A stretch of DNA of 61,541 bases, counting the filler. It is 9 parts of 9 records of this genome, joined end to end, with 100 filler letters (N's around TTAATTAATTAA, not from the genome) between each part and the next. Parts side by side here need not be neighbours in the genome. Positions count along the whole stretch, not along the records: positions 19,345 to 26,024 come from SRR31147125_73752; 8 more parts are not named here. One strand, 5' to 3'. Both the position numbers and the translations under genes were made by a program. Positions 19,345 through 52,515 of the stretch are shown here, one piece after another. Below the pieces are notes generated by a model. It saw nothing but the letters and a program-made list of their open reading frames with translations. It was not told the DNA's origin and searched no databases. Within the stretch, counting starts at the first letter, position 1, and each line of letters starts with the position of its first letter.

Positions 19345-20583
19345 AAAGGCGCAGGGCGGTTTCCGCCGGCATGATTTTATCGCGCTCCATGAAATCGATA
19401 TTGGTGCCGATGTTGTAAAGACCCAAAGGCAAGGATGCGATCAAAAGCGGCGTAAGGATCCCCATATCCTCCTGGAGCACGAACCCGCCTCCCTGGGAAT
19501 GCCAGATCCGACTGATCTGGGCGCAGTTGGTATCGATCTCCTCAGTCGAGCGGCCGATATTCCAGATGATGGGGATGACGCGCACGAAGGTGTTGCCGCT
19601 GATCAATTCCTTGGCCGCCCAACGATACTCGGCTTCCCTTTCGTTTTCCTTTTGACCGCGGACGCCTCTTTTTCCTGGCGGATCATCAATTCGGTCTTGG
19701 AGCGAATGCGTTTGGAAAGTCCCTCGAAAACAACATTCACGGTAACCCAGAACGGGCAGGTAATCTGATTGTTGTCATCAACGGCACCCATGATGCCGCC
19801 CATGATGCGATTCATGGTCAGGGGCTCGATCTCACCAATGGGCCATCCCTTCACGGTCTGGGCCTTCAGGTATTTCGGGGCACACCCGCCGCGTATTTCC
19901 ACATGGGTGAATTTGGCATCGATCATGCCGGCGCGGATGATTTGTTTGCGGATTTCCAGATCCGGGTCATAAGGGGAAAGCTGTGTATTGGCTTCGGTGT
20001 TGAGAATTTTTGACAACAGGCCGATCAAGCCGTTGGGATCCAAAGGCCTGGGATCCAGGCCAGCCCCCTTGAGTGCCTCGGCCAACGAAAGGGCGGCGAA
20101 TTCGAACTGGTCGCTCAGCGGTTCTCCCGGTGGAAACTTGAGGCTGACCAACAACCTGAAATTTCTCACGGGAATATTATTGGTGCTCCTCAGTCCAAAC
20201 TCGGCTTCGGAGAGATGATGAATCATGTTGTCGGTGAGGGTATCCAAGAATGGATTCTGGCGGTTTTTCAGCGACCGGTAATGGTCGAATAGGCCGGTAC
20301 AGTCCGGATCGGCGTACATCATGAACTGGAGCACGCTGCCCGACGGGATTCCGGTGTGGATGCACCCTTTCAGGTTCTCGAACACCTTTTCGGCGGCATA
20401 CACCAAAGGCGTGCATTCCCACACATAGCCGAAGGTGTCATCGGCGCTATGGTAAACACCGGCTTTCCTGTCCCAGGCCTGATAGGGCAGGTAGGCCGAC
20501 AGTTTGTCCCGATTGGCCAGGTTGACGAACCGCTTGGCGTTGAATGCGTCGCCCACACCCAATATTTTATCCAGTAGCAGCAT
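19345..20583 (-). CDS. traC: F-type T4SS ATPase TraC N-terminal part (frameshift near 19640, cut by contig end)
   Basis: LSAYLPY, GYVWECTPL and PVRNFRLLVSLK motifs; follows traV. Confidence 0.85.
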
Positions 20584-20587
20584 AAGC

Positions 20588-21046
20588 CTACTCTTCGATG
20601 ATATCCAGGATCCAGCGGGATCTGTCGCTTTCGAAAAAGATATAGCGTTGGCTGTAAAATCGATCCTCGCGGTTGTACCCTAAAATCAACACCCGCATCA
20701 ATTTGGCGGGAATCCGGACCGGTGTGATGGGGCGCCTTACCAGGCCGGCGATCTCCTGATACAGTTCGTTTTTGTAAACCTGATCCTGGTGCTGTTGGAA
20801 TGTTTCCCGGGTTTGGCTTGTCCGGGGGCGGTCCTTTATTAAAGGTGAATCATGCTGTGGATCGATGTCGTTGGCTTCCGTGTTTTTCGGATCGGCCTTG
20901 GATCGGCGGTAGGCGATGTCCATGGGGACACAATCGCCGTTGAACGGATCCGGACAGTCACTGGAGTCATCATAAGGGTTCAGTGTCTGACAGCCTGACA
21001 GTGATAGGAACACCGCCAGAATAAGCAATAGCCGTATCGTTTCCAT
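20588..21046 (-). CDS. traV: TraV outer-membrane lipoprotein
   Basis: Lipobox LSGC, Cys pair (DCP...DCV), PVRIPAKLMRVLILGY motif. Confidence 0.85.
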   Translation of the reverse strand: METIRLLLILAVFLSLSGCQTLNPYDDSSDCPDPFNGDCVPMDIAYRRSKADPKNTEANDIDPQHDSPLIKDRPRTSQTRETFQQHQDQVYKNELYQEIAGLVRRPITPVRIPAKLMRVLILGYNREDRFYSQRYIFFESDRSRWILDIIEE

Positions 21047-21047
21047 T

Positions 21048-22325
21048 TTATCCTTCCAGTTCCACCTTAGCGGTTTCTTGTTTTTTGATGGCGATATCCA
21101 CCCCCTCGCTGATCACAATGGTGATATTCTTGGTGGGGTGAACCTCGATGACCGGCAGGCTCTGCTCGGCCAGATCCAGATAGAATTGTTGAAGATCCTC
21201 GGCCACATTGACAATGCCCTGTCCGATACCGGCCTTAGCCAGGGTTTCCGGATCGGTGTCCTTGAACTGGCCGGTTCGAACGCCGGTATTGACACCGTAA
21301 GTGAATTCCTGCTGCCCCAGGCTCATGGCATCTCCCAAACCTTCCAGAAAGCCGGCGATCGCCACCCGGGCGATCTGCTGCCCGAATTTAGCGTAAACAT
21401 GACCTTTCATGCCCTCCTTGCCGTCGGTATCGACCACAAACCCCTTGATGGCCTGATCGATTACGGTACCCCCTTTCTGATTGATACAGGATAAGGACAA
21501 CAGGCGGGCGTGAACCCGTTCATCGGCCAGACTACCGTACCCCTCCGCCACGACGAAGCAGCCCTTGGTATTGCTTTTGACGTTGTTGGGCAGCACCGCC
21601 AGGTTATTGACCCGGATCAGCATGGGGATTGGATTGTTCCTGCCCACATCCGTGGCCGGTGCGGTGACGCCGTTGAGCAGGTTGGCTTCCATGAAGGATG
21701 GCGGCAGGTGAACCTCGATGTCATTGGCATCCTGTGAACCGGCTGCGGTAGCTTGAGGATTTTCAAAAACCGTAATCTGTTTGATCGGAAGCTGGTTTTT
21801 ATTGTTGCTCGAGGATTTTTTTGGCTACGACGTCCCTGGAAATAGTTTCTTTCAGGGGGATCACCTTCTTCCTCTGCATTTTTTCGACAACGGGAAGCGG
21901 TGGGGTAAACGAAAGGTTTTGGGGTGGGATCTTGCCAGTGGCTTTGTTTTGGGCAGGGGGATTTAAAAGGGCGTCTGACGTTCTCTTTTTTCTCCATACC
22001 GTTGTATTTTTTGGGCCGCCTGGAATTGTTCGGCAAGCGTGTCCCGCACCTCCTTTTTGAAAACCAGAAGTTCGTTTCGCAGATTGTCGACGTCCGCACG
22101 GGTCTTGTTATAGATGGTCTTCTCGAAGGTCCGCTTATCGAATTGCAGTGTGTTTTTCTTGGCATCCGTGCGGGTCGGGATCTGCCTGTCTTTGTCCTTG
22201 GTGAATTGATAGGCACTGAACACAACGACAACCAGCACCAAACCGATGGTAATTTTTACCAGCCGGTTTTTGTCCTTGCTTTTTAAGTCGCGAAACAGCT
22301 CGATGAGTTTTTTCATAGGATTCAA
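21048..22325 (-). CDS. traB: TraB/VirB10 pilus assembly protein, split by homopolymer frameshifts
   Basis: N-terminal TM and coiled coil (21963-22325), Pro-rich linker, C-terminal LLNGVTAP...GCFV...ERVHARLLSLSC domain. Confidence 0.85.
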
Positions 22326-23105
22326 TCAATCGGATGAATGTTCAACGATAAACAGGCGCATGTACTTGCCGGCGCGCAGGAGCGCCTTGCCGCCTGTAAA
22401 ATGCGCCAAATCCTGTCCCAGGCAGATGGCCGTCGGGTTGCGGGTCAGTTCCGGAACCAGAAAACTGGTTTCGTCCACCACCATCTCTTGCATGTCCGCC
22501 GAAGGGGTGAGGCTCACCAGGTATTCGTTCAGCCGAAGGGGAACGCCATCGATAACCACGATACGCCGCAGTCGGATTCTTAAATGCTCGATTCCATCGA
22601 TTTCCTGATCCTTGGAAATCACATTGAAGTTTTCGGGAATCGTGTCGGCGAAGGCGTTTCGAATCAGATCCACAGCAGCCGTTTCCTTATCAAGCCCGGC
22701 GAATCTGCGCTGGTTTTCCCTGGCTTTGCGGCTTTGCGACTCCAGTCGGATGGCCCTGGCCTTGAGACCCTTTTTGGGGATGATTTCCAGGGTAAATACA
22801 TCTCCGCTTTTCGTAATGACGTAAATGACCCCCTGTTTTGCGGTTTTACCCAGCGTAACGAAGGCATCGTTTCCCTGGTACTCCACTTCCATCTGCAGCC
22901 CTTGGGGAGCGTTGATGTTTTGGATGGGCTCGCTGCAATGGATACGGTTGATGGTTCCCGGCGTCATTTTGACCGGGGGCAGTTGTTCCGATACCCCGTA
23001 ATGGGTTGTCTGTTTTATGATCTGTCCGGATGCCTGGGACAGCGCCGGAAACAGTGAGGCGGCTAAAATGAGGACCAAATATTGGGATCGTTTTTTATGC
23101 TCCAT
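22326..23105 (-). CDS. traK: TraK secretin-like protein
   Basis: Signal peptide, INRIHC motif, position between traE and traB. Confidence 0.8.
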   Translation of the reverse strand: MEHKKRSQYLVLILAASLFPALSQASGQIIKQTTHYGVSEQLPPVKMTPGTINRIHCSEPIQNINAPQGLQMEVEYQGNDAFVTLGKTAKQGVIYVITKSGDVFTLEIIPKKGLKARAIRLESQSRKARENQRRFAGLDKETAAVDLIRNAFADTIPENFNVISKDQEIDGIEHLRIRLRRIVVIDGVPLRLNEYLVSLTPSADMQEMVVDETSFLVPELTRNPTAICLGQDLAHFTGGKALLRAGKYMRLFIVEHSSD

Positions 23106-23655
23106 TTTTTTGGGTTACTCCCGTAATCATGAAGGTACCATCATCGATTTCATATTCGATGATGTGGTTTTCGATTGATTCCTCGATGCGCACGTCATCG
23201 GCAAACTTGCTCCGCAGGCCGATCAACTCGATCTGGTTTGTAGTTCCCAATCTGGTAATCGTATTGACTTGAAAGGAGGAGCTGATCCTCAGGCGAATCA
23301 CCTCTTCGATGATTTTGTCGAGATCGCTTCGCATGGAGCTGAATACGCGAGGGGACGTCAGTTTTAGAAAATCGGAAAAGTTCTGCTCGGCGTTGCTCGG
23401 TGTGTAATCAAGCAGCAGCTTGATCGAATACCGGCTCATCAGTTTGAGATATTCATCATCGGCATCGTTGCCCCTGATTTCGATTTTATGATCCACCATC
23501 GGTGGTAGGATCACCACTTTCTGGTTGTTCATCGCGTGGTAGGCCACAAGTGAATTGACGATGGTGACACCCATCGTCAGCAACAGGCAGAACTTGAGGA
23601 GCCTGTTTTCGGCCATGGCATTGGCCAATTTTTCGCCGTAAATGGATAGCTTCAT
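23095..23655 (-). CDS. traE: TraE (VirB8-like)
   Basis: N-terminal TM, 'VVILPP', 'EYLKLM...LLDYTPSN'; ATG overlaps the traL stop. Confidence 0.85.
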   Translation of the reverse strand: MKLSIYGEKLANAMAENRLLKFCLLLTMGVTIVNSLVAYHAMNNQKVVILPPMVDHKIEIRGNDADDEYLKLMSRYSIKLLLDYTPSNAEQNFSDFLKLTSPRVFSSMRSDLDKIIEEVIRLRISSSFQVNTITRLGTTNQIELIGLRSKFADDVRIEESIENHIIEYEIDDGTFMITGVTQKNGA

Positions 23656-23924
23656 TCGATAAACCTGTTGGCAAAATAATCCGGATAATTGACGAACCTG
23701 TAAAATCCGCTGAAATAGGCAAGATGCCGGATAAACCCCCTGGGAAAATTGCGATTGAGCCAGATGAAGGATGCGACCATTACCAGATTGAGGATCAGGA
23801 CTATCCACTGAAATTGAAAGATCGTGCAAAAGTAGAAGGACAGAAGGCACATGATGAATTCATCGCTTTGCAGCCCGACAAACCGGACCTGCTCGTTTAA
23901 ATAGCGGGGTATCTGATATCGCAT
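23652..23924 (-). CDS. traL: TraL
   Basis: IPRYLNEQ...DEF...PRGFIRHLAYFSG motif. Confidence 0.85.
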   Translation of the reverse strand: MRYQIPRYLNEQVRFVGLQSDEFIMCLLSFYFCTIFQFQWIVLILNLVMVASFIWLNRNFPRGFIRHLAYFSGFYRFVNYPDYFANRFIE

Positions 23925-23950
23925 GAGTTAACCTCCATGTGACAACGTCG

Positions 23951-24265
23951 TTAAAACAGATATGTCGAGACGGTTATTCCAAGCGAGATCACGACATCCT
24001 CGATGAAGATGATCAGCCCGGCGCAGATGGCACAGACGATGGTGCCGAACACATTGCTGCGCACCGCCCAGAATATGGCGTAGAGGACTAATCCTGCGGC
24101 GATGGTGAAACCAATGGCGCCCGTCAGAATTTCGTTCATGAAAAGGTCGTAGACGCTGTACGCGAAACTTCCGGAGGCCGGCGCTTGGAAAGCGGATGCC
24201 ACCATCGGGTAAAATCCGATGGTTAAAACAAGCATGGCGATACTTAATTTTCGGACGGCTTGCAT
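23951..24265 (-). CDS. traA: Conjugative pilin (TraA-like)
   Basis: 104 aa, leader ending ASA, hydrophobic helices, GGAGG RBS, directly upstream of traL. Confidence 0.7.
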   Translation of the reverse strand: MQAVRKLSIAMLVLTIGFYPMVASAFQAPASGSFAYSVYDLFMNEILTGAIGFTIAAGLVLYAIFWAVRSNVFGTIVCAICAGLIIFIEDVVISLGITVSTYLF

Positions 24266-24269
24266 GACT

Positions 24270-24446
24270 TTAGTCCTCCCTTTGGCGATTTTGTTGATGG
24301 ATGATTTTACAATCGATGATATCGCTGCCATGAAAAAGCCTCGGCTCGGCGACATTTATTGTGGCGACTCTGTCGGCGGTGACCGGCTGTTTGGCGCAAC
24401 CGATCAACACGGCCATAGCAATGATTGCGTAAAGGATGTGTTTCAT
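24270..24446 (-). CDS. 58-aa small lipoprotein (below the ORF-track cutoff)
   Basis: MKHILYAIIAMAVLIGCAKQP...; lipobox LIGC; ATG overlaps the rep stop (ATGA). Confidence 0.7.
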   Translation of the reverse strand: MKHILYAIIAMAVLIGCAKQPVTADRVATINVAEPRLFHGSDIIDCKIIHQQNRQRED

Positions 24447-25861
24447 GGTGAGTCCCTGACGGTTTGACTTTTCAAAAGGCCGTAATTTCGGATGACCATG
24501 ATTTTCAAAATCCGATCGGCTTCCTTTTTGACGCGCTTTTTCCAGAGGTCGGTCAGCGGCGAGGGAAGGGGATACCTTTCCTGGATTTCCTTGAGCACCT
24601 GGTTATCCACCGCCCTGTGGAATCCGGGGTGATTCTCCCCCAACAGGTTGCCGATCGAGGCATGCACGGCTGCCTTGGCAACCTCAAAGAGGGTCTTTTG
24701 TTCGGGATCCGAAAGGGTGGACAACTTATCCCTTGCTGCCGCCAATACCTGGCTTTTCTGGCCTCTGAGACTGGGGACTTTCTTTTCGGCCTGCTGCCAG
24801 GCTTCGGTTTGGATGCGGCTTAGCTCCATCGGTGAGATGCACTCCAGGGTCTCCTGAACTTTCTGGTCGATCTGCCGATCCCGCTTTTCGATGTCGGCCA
24901 AAAGTTCCTGTTCGGCGCGCAGCGCTTCAAGGTCTCTTTCCTTTTGCCGGCGCTGTCGAATACGTTTCTCGTTTTGGGCTGCCTGCAGAACTTTCAGATC
25001 CTCGGTGCCCCAGCCATTTTCCAGCGAGCGTTTCAGGAATGCGGGAAATCCACCATTTTTGGTCGAATTGTGGGTGGCATAATCCAGCTCGGCGATGACG
25101 TACGACTTGCCGTGGGTTTTCAGGTATGCGTCGATGCTTGCCAGCACGTCCTTGTGGTCCTGGTAAATGTTGGGGATGCGGGATCGAATAGATTCTGGAA
25201 AATGATTATCAAAAGAAACAGCCGCCGCCTCGCCGGTTGTTGTTGTAGTCTCTGTAGTAATCTCTGTAGTGGTTTCTGTATACGTCCCCCCATTTTTTGG
25301 GGGGATGACCCCCAACTTTTTGGGGGGAGGTCCCCCATTTTTTTGGGGGGATATCCCCGTACTTTTTGGGGGGATATCCCCCAACTTTTTAGGGGGAGGT
25401 CCCCCTACTTTTTGGGGGGATCTGGATTTATTGGAAATTTTGATGATATTGTCGATGATCGGCTCGATATACATCACGTTGGTGATGGCAAGGCCGCTTC
25501 CCGTTTTGATATGGCGAAACTCGCGGGTGATCAGATTCTGGCTGACCAGATTGTCGATGGCGTTTTTAATCTGGTTTTTGGAAAAACCGAAGATGTCCGC
25601 ATATTCCTGGTAGGTTTTCTGGAGTTTGTCGGCCTGGAATTTTTGCTGAATACCGATCACATCGCCGGTGTGCTCGTCCCGGGTCATTATTGGCGTGTAC
25701 CAATAAACGATATCCGACAAGAGGATGATCGCGACAACATCAGGTTTACATGATGCGGTCAATATGTTACGAAACCAGCTGATCGGCGTGATATTTCCGG
25801 TCAAACGGCAGTTCAACATCTGCTGACAAACGGGATTGATTTTGGTGTCATTTTCGTTCAT
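24443..25861 (-). CDS. Phage-type replication initiator (winged-HTH, lambda O-like organisation)
   Basis: GNITPISWF...AIILLSDIVYWY...KFQADKLQKTY...LITREFR N-terminus, internal iteron array, then TETTTEITTET linker. Confidence 0.75.
   Translation of the reverse strand: MNENDTKINPVCQQMLNCRLTGNITPISWFRNILTASCKPDVVAIILLSDIVYWYTPIMTRDEHTGDVIGIQQKFQADKLQKTYQEYADIFGFSKNQIKNAIDNLVSQNLITREFRHIKTGSGLAITNVMYIEPIIDNIIKISNKSRSPQKVGGPPPKKLGDIPPKSTGISPQKNGGPPPKKLGVIPPKNGGTYTETTTEITTETTTTTGEAAAVSFDNHFPESIRSRIPNIYQDHKDVLASIDAYLKTHGKSYVIAELDYATHNSTKNGGFPAFLKRSLENGWGTEDLKVLQAAQNEKRIRQRRQKERDLEALRAEQELLADIEKRDRQIDQKVQETLECISPMELSRIQTEAWQQAEKKVPSLRGQKSQVLAAARDKLSTLSDPEQKTLFEVAKAAVHASIGNLLGENHPGFHRAVDNQVLKEIQERYPLPSPLTDLWKKRVKKEADRILKIMVIRNYGLLKSQTVRDSP
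25285..25420. repeat. Six tandem ~23-bp palindromic iterons (putative origin)
   Basis: Units CCCCC-N3-TTTTT-GGGGGGA-N3; the protein repeats only every 3 units (PPPKKLG 23 aa apart). Confidence 0.9.
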
Positions 25862-25878
25862 GGGAAATTCCTCTGGCT

Positions 25879-25899
25879 GGACATAAAGGCGGACATAAA
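25879..25899 (+). repeat. Direct repeat, putative integrase arm-type sites
   Basis: GGACATAAA-GGC-GGACATAAA about 95 bp from the att core. Confidence 0.55.
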
Positions 25900-25994
25900 T
25901 TGCCCATGAACTTAAGGATTTTTGAGCGGATGTTGAGCCCTATGAGACTGTAATTTCAGAAGGTTACTACAGTGATAGGGGGACTGGGAGGGAC

Positions 25995-26024
25995 CTCTCA
26001 CGCCGGTAACGGGGGTTCGAATCC
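25995..26024 (+). mobile_element. att core: duplicated 3' half of tRNA-Glu(CTC)
   Basis: CTCTCAC anticodon loop, GCCGG, TAAC, GGGGGTTCGAATCC T-arm; no 5' tRNA half upstream; contig ends inside it. Confidence 0.8.
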
Positions 26025-49194: not shown

Positions 49195-51477
49195 ATGACG
49201 CGGGCAGGCTTCAAACTTTTTGTGGTGATCTGTGCAATTTTATTGGTAAGCGGATGCGCCTCAGACCAGGAAAAGGCGAAAAAATTCCTGGACCAGGGAC
49301 AATCCGCCTACGATGCGGCCAACTATAATGAGGCGGTGATTCAGGTTAAAAATGCCATCAAACTCACCCCCAAATCCATTGACGCCCAAAGGCTTCTGGC
49401 AAAGATCTACCTGAAACAGGGAGATGCCCGCCAGACCTTTGACACCCTTTTGAAACTTGAGCAGCTGGACCCCAATGACCTGGACAATACCGCCCGGGTG
49501 GCCTCATTCTATCTTCTGGGCCGCCAGCCCGACGAGGCCAAAAAACGGGTGGACCGGGTGCTGGCCGAAGATCCGGACCATATCCAGGCCCTTTTCCTCA
49601 GGGCCGGACTTCTCAGTTCCGATGCCGGCAACCTTGACCAGATCCAAAGGGTCTACGCCCGGATCCTGGACATTGACCCCAATCAGGCCCGGGCCCACCT
49701 GGCCCTGGCCCGGATAGCCGGCTCCCGGCAAAAGTTTGAGGATGCACAGGCCCATCTTCTCAAGGCCCGGGACATTGACCCGAAAAATATGAACATCCAG
49801 AAAACCCTGTTTGATTTTTACATGTCCCGTCGACAGCCCGACAAGGGTCTGGCCCTGCTCAAGGAATTGGCCGCCAGCCAGCCGGACAAGGCGGATCCCC
49901 ATATTTTCCTGGGCAACTTTTACATGGGCCGGGGAGAGGCAGACAAGGCCGAGGCCGAATACAAGGCGGCCATTGAAAAGGACAGCACCAATATCAGTGC
50001 CTATATGCGCCTGGCCCGCCTGCTCAACGCCAAAGGGGATGCCCAGGGAGCTGAAACCTATATCCAAAAAGCCCTGGCCCAGGAACCGGACAATTTCACC
50101 ATCCAGAACGCCTATGCAGAGTTTCATTTCAGACGCAACAACCTGACCCGGGCCAGGGAAATGGTGGATGCCATCCTGGAAAAACGCCCGGACTTTATGC
50201 CGGCAAAGGCCTTATCCGGCAAGCTGCTGATCCGGGAGCGCAAATTTGACCCGGCCGTTCAGCTGTTTACCGATCTGATCCGGGAGGAACCCGACGCCCC
50301 GGCCTATCATTATCTTCTTGGCTCCGCCCTGTTTGAAAAAGGAGAGTTGTCCCAGGCCAAAGGATCTTTGGCCAATGCCGTTGAAAAGAATCCCAACCAT
50401 ATCCAGGCCCGGGTGATGCTGGCCGACATCCACTTTCGGCAGCGGGACTATGACCTGGCACGGGACAATCTCACCCGGGTCCTTGCCCGCATCCCGGACC
50501 ATTACCAGGCCAACCTCATCCTGGGCAATATCCAAATGGCAGAACAGAAAACCTTAGCAGCCCGGACAACCTTTAACCGGTTGATTGCCATTGATCCGGC
50601 CAACCCCTCCGGCTATTACCGGCTGGGCATTCTTGACCGGGCCCAAAAACAATATGTTCAGGCAGAAACCCAGCTTAAAAAAGCCCTGGAACTTGCCCCC
50701 ACCCTCATGGATGTATTCTCAGCCCTGGTCTCTGTGTATGCCATACAAAAAGACTATGACAAAGCCTTGAACACCATTGATTCCCACCTGGCGGCCCACA
50801 GTGACCACGGGGCCGTGGCTGGGGTTCTCATGAACCTGAAGGGCAATATTCTGCTGTCCAAAAAAGACCTGGCCGGGGGTGAGGCAGCCTTTAAGGAGGC
50901 CATTGTCCAAAACCCAAGGTATGTCTCCCCCTATCTGACCCTGGCCAAGCTATACGGTGCCCAAAAAGACTGGGCAGCCACCGAGAAAATCTACCAGGAC
51001 CTCATTGAGAACCGGCCGGACCAGGCCATGGCCCACGCCCTTTTGGGCAGCCTTCATGAACGCAACGGGAAACAGGATTTGGCCGAGACCCACTATCTTA
51101 AGGCCCTGGAGATTAATCCCGATCAGATGACGGCCCTGAACAACCTGGCCTATCTCTATGCCCAGCAGGACAGGGAACTTAACAAGGCCCTGGAGCTGGC
51201 CCGGAGGGCCAAGGAACGCCTGGGACAGGTGCCGGCCATCATGGACACCCTGGGATGGGTCTATTACAAAAAAGGCTTGTTTGACAGCGCAGCCTCGGAA
51301 TTTGAATCCTGTACCCAAATCGCCCCTGATAATCCCATCTTTCACTATCACCTTGGACTGGCCTTTCATCAATTGGCAAAGGCTGACAAGGCCAAGGCTG
51401 CCTTGAACAGGGCTCTGGCACTGGACAAAAACTTTGACGGGGCCCAGGATGCCCGGGCGATTCTCGATACCCTGTAA
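49195..51477 (+). CDS. TPR-repeat lipoprotein (PrsT-like, PEP-CTERM/exopolysaccharide associated)
   Basis: Lipobox VSGC, many TPR units, ALNNLAYL...DTLGWVYY C-terminus. Confidence 0.85.
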   Translation: MTRAGFKLFVVICAILLVSGCASDQEKAKKFLDQGQSAYDAANYNEAVIQVKNAIKLTPKSIDAQRLLAKIYLKQGDARQTFDTLLKLEQLDPNDLDNTARVASFYLLGRQPDEAKKRVDRVLAEDPDHIQALFLRAGLLSSDAGNLDQIQRVYARILDIDPNQARAHLALARIAGSRQKFEDAQAHLLKARDIDPKNMNIQKTLFDFYMSRRQPDKGLALLKELAASQPDKADPHIFLGNFYMGRGEADKAEAEYKAAIEKDSTNISAYMRLARLLNAKGDAQGAETYIQKALAQEPDNFTIQNAYAEFHFRRNNLTRAREMVDAILEKRPDFMPAKALSGKLLIRERKFDPAVQLFTDLIREEPDAPAYHYLLGSALFEKGELSQAKGSLANAVEKNPNHIQARVMLADIHFRQRDYDLARDNLTRVLARIPDHYQANLILGNIQMAEQKTLAARTTFNRLIAIDPANPSGYYRLGILDRAQKQYVQAETQLKKALELAPTLMDVFSALVSVYAIQKDYDKALNTIDSHLAAHSDHGAVAGVLMNLKGNILLSKKDLAGGEAAFKEAIVQNPRYVSPYLTLAKLYGAQKDWAATEKIYQDLIENRPDQAMAHALLGSLHERNGKQDLAETHYLKALEINPDQMTALNNLAYLYAQQDRELNKALELARRAKERLGQVPAIMDTLGWVYYKKGLFDSAASEFESCTQIAPDNPIFHYHLGLAFHQLAKADKAKAALNRALALDKNFDGAQDARAILDTL

Positions 51478-51511
51478 ATGCCCCGTCCTCAAAGGCCGGC
51501 ATTGGCAGGTG

Positions 51512-52515
51512 ATGGTCGCCTGCACCCTTGCATTTGCCCTGGGCCTGGTTCTTGCCCCCAGCCCCCGGGCCAGGGAAACCCCTGTTGAAAAACAGGTCCT
51601 GGCCTATATCCGGGGAAAAAAGTTCAAGACCGGGGTTCAAGACCGGCAATGCCGGGACCAGACCCGATATAAAATCTATCTCATTGATAATTTTGAGCAG
51701 ACCTTCCCCCTGCTGCCGGAACTGATCACCACCCACGGGGACCTTCTGGTCCGACTTTTAAAATCAGGCCGGGAGGACATCCAGTCCGTGAATCTGAACA
51801 CCACCCTGACCCGGGGACTTGCCATGGTCATCCAGGACCTGTCCCAAGGCGGCTGCGCCGATGCAATTATCTCTTCCATTCCCGGTTCCAATTACACCTA
51901 TGATCAGATCAGAACCCTGCTGCCAAAGATCAGGGACCTGAACCCGGATACCCGGGTGGGGCACAGAAATGCCCTTAAACGCCTGCTCCGGGGGATTGCT
52001 TTCGATGGGTATCCTTCGGTGGCATGGGTCAGCCAGGCAGACATCAACCTGACCAAACTCAGGGAGGATGCAATGAAACTGGTCTTTATCCAGGCCCTGG
52101 GGCGCTTCGGGGTCGGGGTGATTCTCCCCTACGGCAATTCGGACGCCCCCCATAAAGGCCGCTCAAAAGAGTTCAACCTGCTCAGCCTGGCGGACAACGC
52201 CCTTGTTTATACCGGTTTGAACCAGTACGGGGAGCGGGTCAAAGGCTTTCCTTACAGCCCTTTGAGTTCAGGGGATGAAACCGCCGTCTACACCCTGACA
52301 GAATGCCTGGACCCAAACCATCCGGGCCAGGCCCTGCTGGATATCAACGAGGACGGATTCTTTGACTATACCTTTGCCCTGCCCCCCGGGGACGGGGTGC
52401 CTGTCCCCGGGATGCCAGGGGCTGCCGAATCCGGGGCCTTGTCCGGGGCACCTCGGTCATCCCTCCCCTTAAGGTAAAATCCCTTTTGCCGGTCCGATCA
52501 TCCAGCGCCCCATAA
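51512..52515 (+). CDS. Secreted divergent subtilisin-like (S8) protein; frameshift near 52385
   Basis: Signal peptide; YLID, THG and YGNS in the main frame; GTSVIPP in the shifted frame at 52447. Confidence 0.55.

What the first reader, a model, noticed from the sequence alone, without database searches (positions are those of the whole stretch)
24270..26024. ICE whose conjugation operon is headed by a phage-type replication initiator placed against the att site
Seen: a tRNA-Glu 3' fragment, a GGACATAAA direct repeat, and about 135 bp from the core the ATG of a 472-aa protein. That gene is coupled by an ATGA overlap to a small lipoprotein, followed by traA-L-E-K-B-V-C. No clear sigma70 promoter is visible in the 135-bp arm. 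Known: characterised ICEs (ICEBs1, SXT/R391, Tn916) replicate by relaxase-initiated rolling circle, whereas HTH-iteron initiators are typical of lambdoid and Firmicutes phages. Inference: a phage-ICE hybrid that amplifies by theta replication, with rep and tra possibly switched on when excision brings a promoter across attP.
Basis: partly seen in the sequence, partly recalled or inferred. Interest (0 to 1): 0.8.

Follow-up and report, generated by a model that had tools for sequence, protein, structure and literature searches.

The report
Conjugative island with phage-type replication origin
The end of a conjugative genomic island of sulfate-reducing bacteria carries, right beside its integration site, a phage-lambda-style replication initiator gene with its own origin repeats inside it, which suggests the island can copy itself like a plasmid once it leaves the chromosome.

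Summary
The window is nine contigs joined by N spacers, and the "att site" lies at the end of a 6,680-bp contig (19345-26024).

- **What is there:** the tRNA-Glu 3' fragment, the GGACATAAA repeat, the 472-aa ORF, the ATGA-coupled lipoprotein and traL-E-K-B-V-C are all present.
- **The 472-aa protein:** it is a DnaD/lambda-O-like initiator. It has a conserved winged-helix N-domain, a disordered linker encoded by six 23-bp iterons plus conserved 12-mers, and a helical C-domain. This repeat array is present in 9 of 9 related genes.
- **Complete relatives:** in Desulfosarcina widdelii the element spans about 150 kb. It runs from an intact tRNA-Glu and integrase, through cargo, T4CP and F-type tra genes, to rep and the tRNA fragment.
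- **GGACATAAA:** it sits on both att arms, so it is probably the integrase arm-type site.
- **Not shown:** replication itself. No canonical relaxase was found.
- **The "promoter across attP" switch:** the integrase does point into rep across attP, but a terminator-like hairpin intervenes in 3 of 3 elements examined.

Dedicated Rep/oriV modules are already known in integrated elements (SGI1, some T-type ICEs). I rate this a new variant of a known kind, of moderate interest.

The parts
25994..26024 (+). tRNA-Glu(CUC) 3' fragment, from the anticodon loop to the T-loop. This is the att core copy (attR side). It is cut off by the contig end.
   Evidence: Logan contigs branch at 25994 and depth rises about 2.5-fold there.
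25879..25899 (+). Two GGACATAAA direct repeats 12 bp apart. Probably arm-type binding sites of the integrase (P arm of attP).
   Evidence: In D. widdelii, 5 of 5 copies in 170 kb lie on the two att arms, all in one orientation, against 1.4 expected. Four copies lie between int and the core in L008.
25856..25911 (-). Inverted repeat / leader hairpin that encloses the two repeats, the GAGGAA ribosome-binding site and the rep ATG.
   Evidence: I8; 21 pairs, 2 with changes on both sides among 4 sequences; z = -1.77. The evidence is weak.
24443..25861 (-). rep: a 472-aa DnaD/lambda-O-like replication initiator.
25424..25861 (-). N-terminal winged-helix DNA-binding domain (aa 1-146), the most conserved part of the protein.
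   Evidence: High pLDDT. Near-invariant across 25 proteins. Winged-helix fold matches.
25422..25461 (.). AT-rich tract (GC 0.27-0.37) flanking the iterons. Candidate unwinding region.
25284..25421 (.). Six tandem 23-bp iterons, each a 14-bp G5-AT-AT-C5 palindrome plus an A5 tract. They encode part of the disordered linker in all three frames.
   Evidence: The same array is present in 9 of 9 related genes. The linker has pLDDT below 50.
25241..25280 (.). About three 12-bp repeats of TACAGAGAYTAC type, encoding the T-E-x-T-T motif. Conserved at the nucleotide level in distant phage homologues.
24464..25207 (-). C-terminal helical part (aa 219-466). A DnaD-like segment (about aa 230-296) is followed by a clade-specific helical extension.
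   Evidence: Atlas leads only.
24270..24446 (-). 58-aa lipoprotein gene, translationally coupled to rep by an ATGA overlap.
   Evidence: Weak NGK_0946 family hit.
23951..24355 (-). Pilin-like (TraA-position) hydrophobic small protein. The likely true start is the internal ATG at 24265.
   Evidence: No family hit. Called a pilin by position and hydrophobicity only.
23652..23924 (-). traL
23095..23655 (-). traE
22326..23105 (-). traK
21048..22325 (-). traB. It reads as broken here only because of three single-base omissions in this assembly.
20588..21046 (-). traV lipoprotein
19345..20583 (-). traC (VirB4-type ATPase), 5' part only, cut by the contig end. There is one single-base assembly omission at 19668.

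Best explanation
The contig is the rep-proximal end of a tRNA-Glu-integrated, F-type conjugative element of Desulfosarcina-like bacteria.

**What the first gene is.** It encodes a replication initiator of the phage DnaD/lambda-O kind, and the origin lies inside the gene.

**Proposed mechanism (inferred).**
1. Dimers of the N-terminal winged-helix domain bind the six phased 14-bp palindromes (23-bp period, A-tracts between).
2. The bound array bends the DNA and opens the adjacent AT-rich / 12-mer region.
3. The DnaD-like middle segment and the clade-specific helical C-terminus recruit the host helicase. The element supplies its own RepB'-type primase, ParB and, in one relative, SSB.
4. The excised circle can therefore replicate as a plasmid, most likely theta-type, during excision and after transfer.

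**The att arm.** The 133-bp stretch between the att core and the rep ATG is the P arm of attP. Its GGACATAAA repeats are arm-type sites of the integrase, not replication signals.

**Shown versus inferred.**
- Shown: homology, domain layout, the conserved DNA-level repeat array, position at the att end, and element structure in relatives.
- Inferred: DNA binding, origin firing, the mode of replication, and the regulation of rep.
For: **Homology**
- PHROG 186 'DnaD-like helicase loader' 5e-12, PHROG 270 4e-11, PHROG 391 'O-like' 6.5e-8.
- The N-domain is 37-38% identical to proteins in 56 phage records.
- In 2 phages and 1 E. coli plasmid examined, the homologue sits in the lambda-O position, next to a helicase, helicase-loader-type or other replication gene.
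- BFVD best hit is the Bacillus phage PM1 DnaD replication protein, E 2.8e-13. GpO-N and 'replisome organizer' rows follow.
- hhalign against DnaD-domain homologues gives probability 100%, E 2e-53, over 258 columns.

**Origin inside the gene**
- Six 23-bp repeats; the period is not a multiple of 3.
- They fall in a linker that the model predicts to be disordered.
- The array is present at the same place in 9 of 9 genes, down to 47% protein identity, with 2.3 to 6 copies.
- An AT-rich tract lies beside it.
- The 12-mer is kept at the nucleotide level in 10 of 12 genes, including an Acinetobacter phage, an Exiguobacterium phage and an E. coli plasmid.
- Lambdoid origins have the same layout (PMC7466680, passages).

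**Element context**
- D. widdelii has an intact tRNA-Glu plus integrase at one end and rep plus the tRNA fragment at the other, about 150 kb apart, with T4CP, ParB, primase and a full F-type tra set.
- rep lies within about 0.13-0.35 kb of a tRNA or tRNA fragment in 9 of 9 loci.
- The rep family is intact in 25 full-length proteins of 44-94% identity.
Against: - No experiment or read evidence of replication or of an excised circle. No RNA run was available.
- No Pfam or NCBIfam family reaches its threshold for the protein.
- Fold matches to solved structures are generic winged-helix proteins. Initiators (4pta Z 7.1; 4pql, 4pt7 and 5kbj E 0.06-0.2; DnaD-N 2v79) are tied with repressors.
- No DnaA box in the contig.
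- No helicase or loader gene beside rep, unlike in the phages.
- On the opposite strand the repeats also fit a terminator-like pattern.
- The window itself holds only one att side and no integrase, T4CP or relaxase.
Confidence: 0.6

Rival explanations
1. The element is primarily a conjugative plasmid that sometimes integrates. On this view rep is its main vegetative replicon, not a transient amplifier of an ICE.
For: - In L008 the integrase, att core and rep are contiguous in the attP configuration, inside a 470-kb contig.
- The backbone carries ParB, primase, SSB, HU and RadC, as conjugative plasmids do.
Against: - In D. widdelii (complete chromosome) the element is integrated, with both att copies present.
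- Relatives L007 and L001/L002/L005 sit beside intact chromosomal tRNA genes; L007 also has housekeeping genes upstream.
- The L008 junction could equally be a tandem of two elements.
Confidence: 0.15
2. The protein is a DNA-binding regulator or insulator, not an initiator. It would bind the palindromes in its own gene to auto-regulate or to gate transcription of the tra operon.
For: - Solved-structure matches are mostly winged-helix repressors.
- The gene heads the tra operon.
- There is no adjacent helicase or loader.
Against: - Homologues occupy the initiator slot of phage replication modules.
- The protein has a DnaD-like second domain.
- The phased iterons, AT-rich tract and conserved 12-mers match origin anatomy.
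Confidence: 0.1
3. The repeat array is a stack of antisense intrinsic terminators that shields the element from read-in transcription from the chromosomal flank.
For: 15 of 17 terminator-like hits in 23900-26024 fall on the plus strand within the array, against 3.2 expected for the region.
Against: - Strict 23-bp phasing, with copy number varying from 2.3 to 6.
- The T-run is usually separated from the stem.
- Distant phage homologues have non-hairpin iterons at the same place.
Confidence: 0.03
4. A decaying prophage remnant captured by the island, with no present function.
For: The window shows frame breaks in neighbouring tra genes.
Against: - Those breaks are assembly omissions.
- rep is intact in 25 full-length proteins of 44-94% identity, with a near-invariant N-domain.
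- Its position is kept with three different tRNA targets and two T4SS types.
Confidence: 0.05

Closest known systems
Phage lambda O protein and ori-lambda (lambdoid and Stx phages)
   Same: - The origin lies in the middle of the initiator gene: 4-6 iterons with G-tracts and A-tracts, followed by an AT-rich region.
- Extra iterons add residues to a linker.
- The N-domain binds the iterons.
- Sources: PMC7466680 (passages).
   Different: - No Pfam Phage_rep_O hit; only a PHROG 'O-like' match at 6.5e-8.
- No P-like loader or helicase gene downstream.
- The gene resides in a conjugative element, not a phage.
DnaD-like phage replication proteins (PHROG 186; Bacillus phage PM1 DnaD; Acinetobacter, Exiguobacterium and enterobacterial prophage 'replication protein')
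   Same: - The N-domain is 37-55% identical.
- The T-E-I-T-T motif and its 12-mer DNA repeat are shared.
- Element-specific repeats of about 22-23 bp lie upstream of the 12-mers.
- A DnaD-like second domain is present.
-.
   Different: - There is an extra helical C-terminal extension of about 170 aa, found only in the Desulfosarcina-type clade.
- The gene context is att + tra rather than cI/cro + helicase.
SGI1 Rep/oriV (integrative mobilizable element)
   Same: - An integrated element with a dedicated rep and an iteron origin that replicates after excision.
- rep sits near int/xis.
- Source: PMC7433901 (abstract and passages).
   Different: - The SGI1 Rep is of RepA_C type, with oriV downstream of the gene and a DnaA box.
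- SGI1 is not self-transmissible.
- Here the origin is inside the gene, no DnaA box was found, and the element has its own T4SS.
ICEs with predicted theta replicases (mostly MPF-T) and SXT/R391 (MPF-F)
   Same: - Integrase + T4SS + partition/replication genes.
- The T4CP is of SXT_TraD type.
- The gene order is F-type.
   Different: - Cury et al. found 16 of 200 ICEs with theta-type proteins: 15 in MPF-T, 1 in MPF-G and none in MPF-F (PMC5587801, passages).
- SXT replicates from oriT by its MOBH relaxase (PMC4489591, listing and abstract only).
- No MOBH relaxase is present here.
RepA_N plasmid initiators (pSK41/pTZ2162)
   Same: - The origin repeats lie inside the rep gene, between an N-terminal DnaD-like winged-helix domain and a host-specific C-domain. 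This layout is recalled, not taken from a call.
- Weak structural matches: 4pql, 4pt7, 5kbj and 4pta.
   Different: - No sequence-family hit.
- The structural scores are no better than for generic winged-helix repressors.
Tn916 (tra expression only after circularisation)
   Same: Gene order places a recombination-module promoter upstream of the transfer genes across the joint. This is recalled, not taken from a call.
   Different: Here a terminator-like hairpin lies between int and the core in 3 of 3 elements, so read-through is not supported.

Membership tests
Integrative and conjugative element (ICE) | Site-specific integrase at one end | tested here: met
   Not in the window. Relatives have tyrosine integrases beside the tRNA or fragment: D. 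widdelii L009:9857-11083, L008, L018 and L019.
Integrative and conjugative element (ICE) | Direct repeat of the target (attL/attR) flanking the element | tested here: met
   D. widdelii has an intact tRNA-Glu at 5149467-5149542 and a 3' fragment at 5299215-5299290. The window holds only one side, cut by the contig end.
Integrative and conjugative element (ICE) | Mating-pair formation genes including a VirB4/TraC ATPase | tested here: met
   TraL, E, K, B, V and C in the window. TraW, U, TrbC, F, H and G in D. widdelii.
Integrative and conjugative element (ICE) | Type IV coupling protein | tested here: met
   SXT_TraD-like T4CP in D. widdelii and G003. Not on the window contig.
Integrative and conjugative element (ICE) | Relaxase and oriT | tested here: inconclusive
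   No relaxase family was found among ORFs of the D. widdelii and G003 elements. No PF07514 hit lies inside the element. A conserved Integrase_1/Phage_int_SAM_2 protein is a candidate atypical relaxase, by analogy with MpsA (PMC6414798, abstract and passages).
Integrative and conjugative element (ICE) | Excision and transfer | not testable with these tools
   All runs were contigs, and no excised-form joint was seen.
Lambda O family (Pfam Phage_rep_O) | Match to the family profile | tested here: not met
   No Pfam hit other than a sub-threshold winged-helix match. The only support is PHROG 391 'O-like' at 6.5e-8 and a BFVD GpO-N row at E 1.1e-3.
DnaD-like phage replication proteins | Homologous N-terminal origin-binding domain | tested here: met
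   hhalign probability 100%, E 2e-53. PHROG 186 at 5e-12. 56 phage records.
DnaD-like phage replication proteins | DnaD C-terminal (Pfam DnaB_2) domain | tested here: inconclusive
   The profile alignment places aa 230-296 opposite the DnaB_2 domain of P0062 (residues 193-268), with low column confidence. Pfam does not score the window protein.
Iteron-type replication origin | Three or more phased direct repeats next to or within rep | tested here: met
   Six copies with a 23-bp period. Present in 9 of 9 homologous genes.
Iteron-type replication origin | Adjacent AT-rich unwinding region | tested here: met
   GC 0.27-0.37 at gene nt 401-440, and 0.37-0.43 over the 12-mers, against 0.51 for the whole gene.
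Iteron-type replication origin | DnaA box | tested here: not met
   No TTWTNCACA in contig 19345-26024. There are 4 matches elsewhere in the window, against 5.5 expected.
Iteron-type replication origin | Initiator binding and origin activity | not testable with these tools
   Needs EMSA or footprinting and a replication assay.
RepA_N plasmid initiators | Sequence or fold membership | tested here: inconclusive
   No family hit. 4pta scores Z 7.1, tied with generic winged-helix proteins. 4pql, 4pt7 and 5kbj score E 0.06-0.2.

The most novel reading that the evidence does not exclude
A family of Desulfobacterota conjugative elements combines three unusual features.

- **Replicon.** It is a phage lambda-style 'origin-inside-the-initiator-gene' module sitting directly on the P arm of attP. 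Integrase arm sites overlap the rep leader, so integrase occupancy, or integration itself, would gate replication and tra expression.
- **Portability.** The same int-attP-rep cassette is linked to at least two T4SS types (F-type and VirB-type) and three tRNA targets.
- **Relaxase.** No classical relaxase is present. A conserved tyrosine-recombinase-like protein may serve as an MpsA/TcpM-type relaxase in a self-transmissible element.
Probability: 0.18. Interest if true: 0.7.

Novelty: new variant of a known kind. Interest (0 to 1): 0.5.

Why it matters
- A survey of 200 ICEs found few or no dedicated replication systems in F-type ICEs (PMC5587801, passages). Characterised F-type ICEs are described as replicating from oriT by their relaxase.
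- A conserved phage-type initiator with an in-gene origin, heading the tra operon of an F-type element, would extend the ICE-plasmid-phage continuum into sulfate-reducing Desulfobacterota.
- It would also provide a compact candidate replicon (rep with its internal origin) for genetic tools in organisms that have few.
- The element carries large metal-resistance and defence cargo in D. widdelii, so its maintenance mechanism bears on how such traits spread in sediments.
- The 12-mer conserved at the nucleotide level from Firmicutes phages to this element hints at an unrecognised origin element of the whole DnaD-like initiator family.

Tried and rejected
**Searches that gave nothing useful**
- The window's own genome is not held.
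- The sequence search of the PDB, with the single protein and with a 25-sequence profile, gave nothing meaningful.
- Foldseek against the PDB gave no hit at E <= 0.001. VIA-wide gave only generic winged-helix and single long-helix matches, all with Z below 8.
- The MOBH relaxase family (PF07514) was not found inside the elements of three genomes. The only hits were weak and elsewhere.
- Pfam on the C-terminal half alone gave only chance-level hits.
- The ESM Atlas gave only unnamed clusters at 0.91-0.92. Rep C-domain families scored 0.80-0.82, which are leads only.
- No RNA holder was listed among the public runs. Contigs cannot show transcript starts or an excised circle, and no attP joint was seen.
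- A literature search for Desulfosarcina + conjugative + integrative gave 5 papers, none about this element by title or abstract in the listing.

**Weak or negative structure and promoter results**
- The consensus terminator scan did not list the hairpin after the D. widdelii integrase. The hairpin was found by folding.
- The leader hairpin over the rep start has only z = -1.77, and 2 pairs with changes on both sides among 4 sequences.

**Readings I rejected**
- The frame breaks in traB and traC are not real pseudogenisation.
- GGACATAAA is not a replication signal.
Full report
**1. What the window is**

The 61.5-kb window is nine contigs joined by N44-TTAATTAATTAA-N44 spacers, with GC ranging from 0.365 to 0.559. 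The finding lies at the right end of contig 19345-26024 (6,680 bp). Whatever follows 26024 in the window is therefore unrelated DNA, and the 'att site' is seen only up to a contig end. No whole genome is held for the window.

**2. The observation**

All genes on the contig are on the minus strand:

| Gene | Coordinates |
|---|---|
| 472-aa ORF (rep) | 24443-25861 |
| 58-aa lipoprotein | 24270-24446 |
| Hydrophobic pilin-like ORF | 23951-24355 |
| TraL, TraE, TraK, TraB, TraV | 20588-23924 |
| TraC, 5' part | 19345-20583 |

- The lipoprotein has an L-I-G-C lipobox. Its ATG overlaps the rep TGA as ATGA.
- TraL to TraC are confirmed by Pfam and NCBIfam. The pilin-like ORF has no family hit.
- ARAGORN finds no tRNA. 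Even so, 25994-26024 equals tRNA-Glu(CUC) from the anticodon loop to the T-loop.
- GGACATAAA occurs at 25879 and 25891.
- The simple scan finds no sigma-70-like site in the 133-bp arm.

Laying Logan contigs of four public runs, one of them probably the source, gave three results:
- The long contig ends at the same base as the window contig.
- Short high-depth contigs branch at 25994 into intact-tRNA sequence, and depth rises about 2.5-fold. This is what a repeated att core does to an assembly graph.
- The apparent frame breaks in traB and traC are four single-base omissions of this assembly, at 19668, 21815, 21854 and 21985. The missing bases are present in the source-run contig and in other runs.

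**3. The 472-aa protein**

*Sequence relatives*
- No Pfam or NCBIfam family reaches its threshold.
- PHROGs gives 186 'DnaD-like helicase loader' (5e-12, aa 52-333), 270 'replication initiation protein' (4e-11) and 391 'replication initiation O-like' (6.5e-8).
- The large protein search gave 109 hits among 8,000 scored candidates:
  - Full-length relatives of 44-94% identity, from Desulfosarcina and related metagenomes.
  - Many 260-430-aa proteins that share only the first 130 or so residues at 38-55% identity. These are named 'replication protein' or 'DnaD/phage-associated'.
- tblastn finds the N-domain in 56 phage records and 21 plasmid records. None covers 80% of the query.
- In the three records I opened, the homologue follows cI/cro-type regulators in two (the third follows recombination genes). 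It precedes a replicative helicase, an ATP-binding loader-type protein or another replication protein, which is the lambda-O slot.

*Structure*
- An AlphaFold model built from 71 sequences has three parts:
  - A confident winged-helix domain (aa 1-146).
  - A disordered linker (aa 147-218).
  - A helical C-terminal part (aa 219-466).
- Against viral models the best hit is the Bacillus phage PM1 DnaD replication protein (E 2.8e-13, 333 columns). GpO-N, 'replisome organizer' and 'replication initiator' rows follow.
- Against solved structures only generic winged-helix proteins appear. RepA_N initiators and DnaD-N are among them but not above them.
- A profile-profile comparison with ten DnaD-domain homologues gives probability 100% and E 2e-53 over aa 9-296. 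Positions 230-296 lie opposite their DnaB_2 domain.
- The last 170 or so residues are specific to the Desulfosarcina-type clade.

**4. The origin inside the gene**

- The linker is encoded by six tandem 23-bp units at 25284-25421. Each unit is a 14-bp G5-AT-AT-C5 palindrome plus an A5 tract.
- A period of 23 is not a multiple of three, so the repeat is read in all three frames. It is therefore a DNA-level feature.
- The same array sits at the same place in 9 of 9 genes examined (the window plus L001-L008). Copy numbers are 6.0, 6.0, 6.0, 6.0, 4.7-5.6, 5.9, 5.9, 2.3 and 3.9, down to 47% protein identity. Linker-length differences among the proteins track the copy number.
- Upstream lies an AT-rich tract (GC 0.27-0.37). 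Downstream lie about three 12-bp repeats of TACAGAGAYTAC type.
- That 12-mer is kept almost letter for letter in 10 of 12 genes, including those of an Acinetobacter phage, an Exiguobacterium phage and an E. coli plasmid. Their upstream repeats of about 22-23 bp are different and element-specific.
- No DnaA box is present in the contig.

**5. The element**

Eight related loci were recovered from species-representative genomes.

*Position of rep.* rep lies 0.13-0.35 kb from a tRNA or tRNA fragment in 9 of 9 loci:

| Loci | Neighbouring tRNA feature |
|---|---|
| Window, L003, L004, L006 | tRNA-Glu 3' fragment on the opposite strand |
| L001, L002, L005 | Intact tRNA-Lys(CUU) on the same strand |
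| L007 | Intact tRNA-Thr(CGU) |
| L008 | tRNA-Glu-like fragment with an integrase on its other side |

*The complete element in D. widdelii PP31.* The intact tRNA-Glu (5149467-5149542) and the fragment (5299215-5299290) lie about 150 kb apart. Between them, in order:
- A tyrosine integrase, immediately beside the tRNA.
- An HTH protein, HU, and a second recombinase-like gene (Integrase_1/Phage_int_SAM_2).
- About 130 kb of cargo: copper, mercury, zinc and RND efflux genes, restriction/DISARM-like and ubiquitin-like defence genes, and IS elements.
- RadC, a RepB'-type primase, ParB and an SXT_TraD-like coupling protein.
- TraG, H, F, TrbC, U, W, C, V, B, K, E and L, then the pilin, the lipoprotein and rep.

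*Other relatives*
- The 29-kb backbone from rep to the Integrase_1-like gene is collinear in the two tRNA-Lys elements, with SSB and DUF932 in one.
- Their integrase ends appear on other contigs, beside tRNA-Lys 3' fragments.
- Of 7 loci examined for genes downstream of rep (L004 and L005 were not examined):
  - 5 have F-type tra genes (the window, L001, L002, L003, L006).
  - 1 has a VirB4-B6-B8-B9-B10-B11 set (L008).
  - 1 has only metal-resistance cargo within 10 kb (L007).
- No relaxase family was detected in either fully scanned element. The conserved Integrase_1-like protein is a candidate atypical relaxase of the MpsA/TcpM kind (PMC6414798, abstract and passages). This is inference only.

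**6. The att arm and the proposed switch**

*GGACATAAA as integrase arm sites*
- In 170 kb of D. widdelii, GGACATAAA occurs 5 times, against 1.4 expected.
- All five are in one orientation, and all lie within about 0.3 kb of the core. Three are on the integrase arm and two on the rep arm.
- L008 has four copies between the integrase and the core.
- The tRNA-Lys elements have a different repeat (GACAAGG type) near their cores.
- I therefore read GGACATAAA as the integrase's arm-type sites.

*The switch*
- In the circular form the gene order is int, attP, rep, tra, all co-directional. This is deduced for D. widdelii and seen contiguous in L008.
- However, a stable hairpin followed by UUUUAU lies between the integrase stop and the core in 3 of 3 elements folded:

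| Element | Energy (kcal/mol) | z |
|---|---|---|
| D. widdelii | -20.6 | -4.74 |
| L008 | -16.5 | -2.55 |
| L018 (whole 94-nt stretch) | -21.1 | -2.06 |

- The consensus scan did not list this hairpin.
- By my own reading, the arm holds a conserved weak -35/-10 candidate (8 of 12).
- A conserved inverted repeat could sequester the rep ribosome-binding site and AUG. The evidence is weak: z = -1.77, and 2 pairs with changes on both sides among 4 sequences.
- No RNA run was available.
- The switch is neither shown nor excluded. Simple read-through from int is not favoured.

**7. Comparison and novelty**

- The protein works like lambda O, but it does not meet the Pfam O family.
- It is a member of the DnaD-like phage replication protein group by its N-domain. 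The DnaD C-domain is placed only by profile alignment.
- Dedicated rep/oriV modules in integrated elements are already known:
  - SGI1 replicates from an iteron oriV after excision (PMC7433901, abstract and passages).
  - 16 of 200 ICEs carry predicted theta replicases: 15 in MPF-T, 1 in MPF-G and none in MPF-F (PMC5587801, passages).
- A search for Desulfosarcina with 'conjugative' and 'integrative' returned 5 papers. None is about this element by its listing.
- My verdict is a new variant of a known kind.
  - It is a phage-type initiator with an in-gene origin.
  - It is fixed at the attP junction and heads the transfer operon of an F-type element.
  - It is conserved across three tRNA targets and two T4SS types.
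- Replication itself remains to be shown.

Noticed in passing
window 1-61541: The window is nine contigs joined by N44-TTAATTAATTAA-N44 spacers, with GC from 0.365 to 0.559. The bin may be heterogeneous, and neighbouring segments say nothing about each other.
   Followed up: partly
window 19668, 21815, 21854, 21985: Four single bases are missing relative to Logan contigs of the probable source run and of other runs. They create false frame breaks in traC and traB.
   Followed up: yes
window 25241-25280; L027:2998-3027; L028:2968-3007; L029:3028-3059: A 12-bp repeat (TACAGAGAYTAC type, encoding T-E-x-T-T) is kept at the nucleotide level between Desulfosarcina elements, an Acinetobacter phage, an Exiguobacterium phage and an E. 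coli plasmid. It may be an unrecognised origin element of this initiator family.
   Followed up: partly
L009:12597-13607; L020:16892-17854; G002:C25 about 50623-51570: No canonical relaxase was found in these elements. A conserved 320-336-aa Integrase_1/Phage_int_SAM_2 protein at the end of the backbone could be an MpsA/TcpM-like atypical relaxase.
   Followed up: partly
L008:6899-21122: A 53%-identical rep homologue follows integrase + arm sites + a tRNA-Glu-like fragment in an attP-like arrangement. It heads a VirB4/B6/B8/B9/B10/B11-type T4SS instead of F-type genes, inside a 470-kb contig.
   Followed up: partly
L007:9596-21288: A 47%-identical rep homologue sits beside an intact tRNA-Thr. 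It is followed only by thioredoxin/DsbD, ArsP/ArsR and RND efflux genes, with no T4SS within 10 kb. This may be a reduced or mobilizable relative.
   Followed up: no
G001:C1:5151000-5275000 (L009-L015): The D. widdelii element carries about 130 kb of cargo:
- Copper oxidases, CopB, P-type ATPases, MerR/MerT, ZIP and RND/Cus-like efflux genes.
- Cytochrome c biogenesis genes.
- A helicase/methylase defence cluster and a ubiquitin-like (E1/E2/JAB) system.
- Several IS elements.
   Followed up: no
window 25856-25911: A conserved inverted repeat could fold in the rep leader to occlude the ribosome-binding site and the AUG. It also brackets the two integrase arm sites.
   Followed up: partly
L014:14967-19590: In D. 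widdelii an IS21 copy (istA/istB) sits between a 178-aa HTH_36 ORF and a 522-aa ORF with no family hit. This may be an interrupted gene.
   Followed up: no
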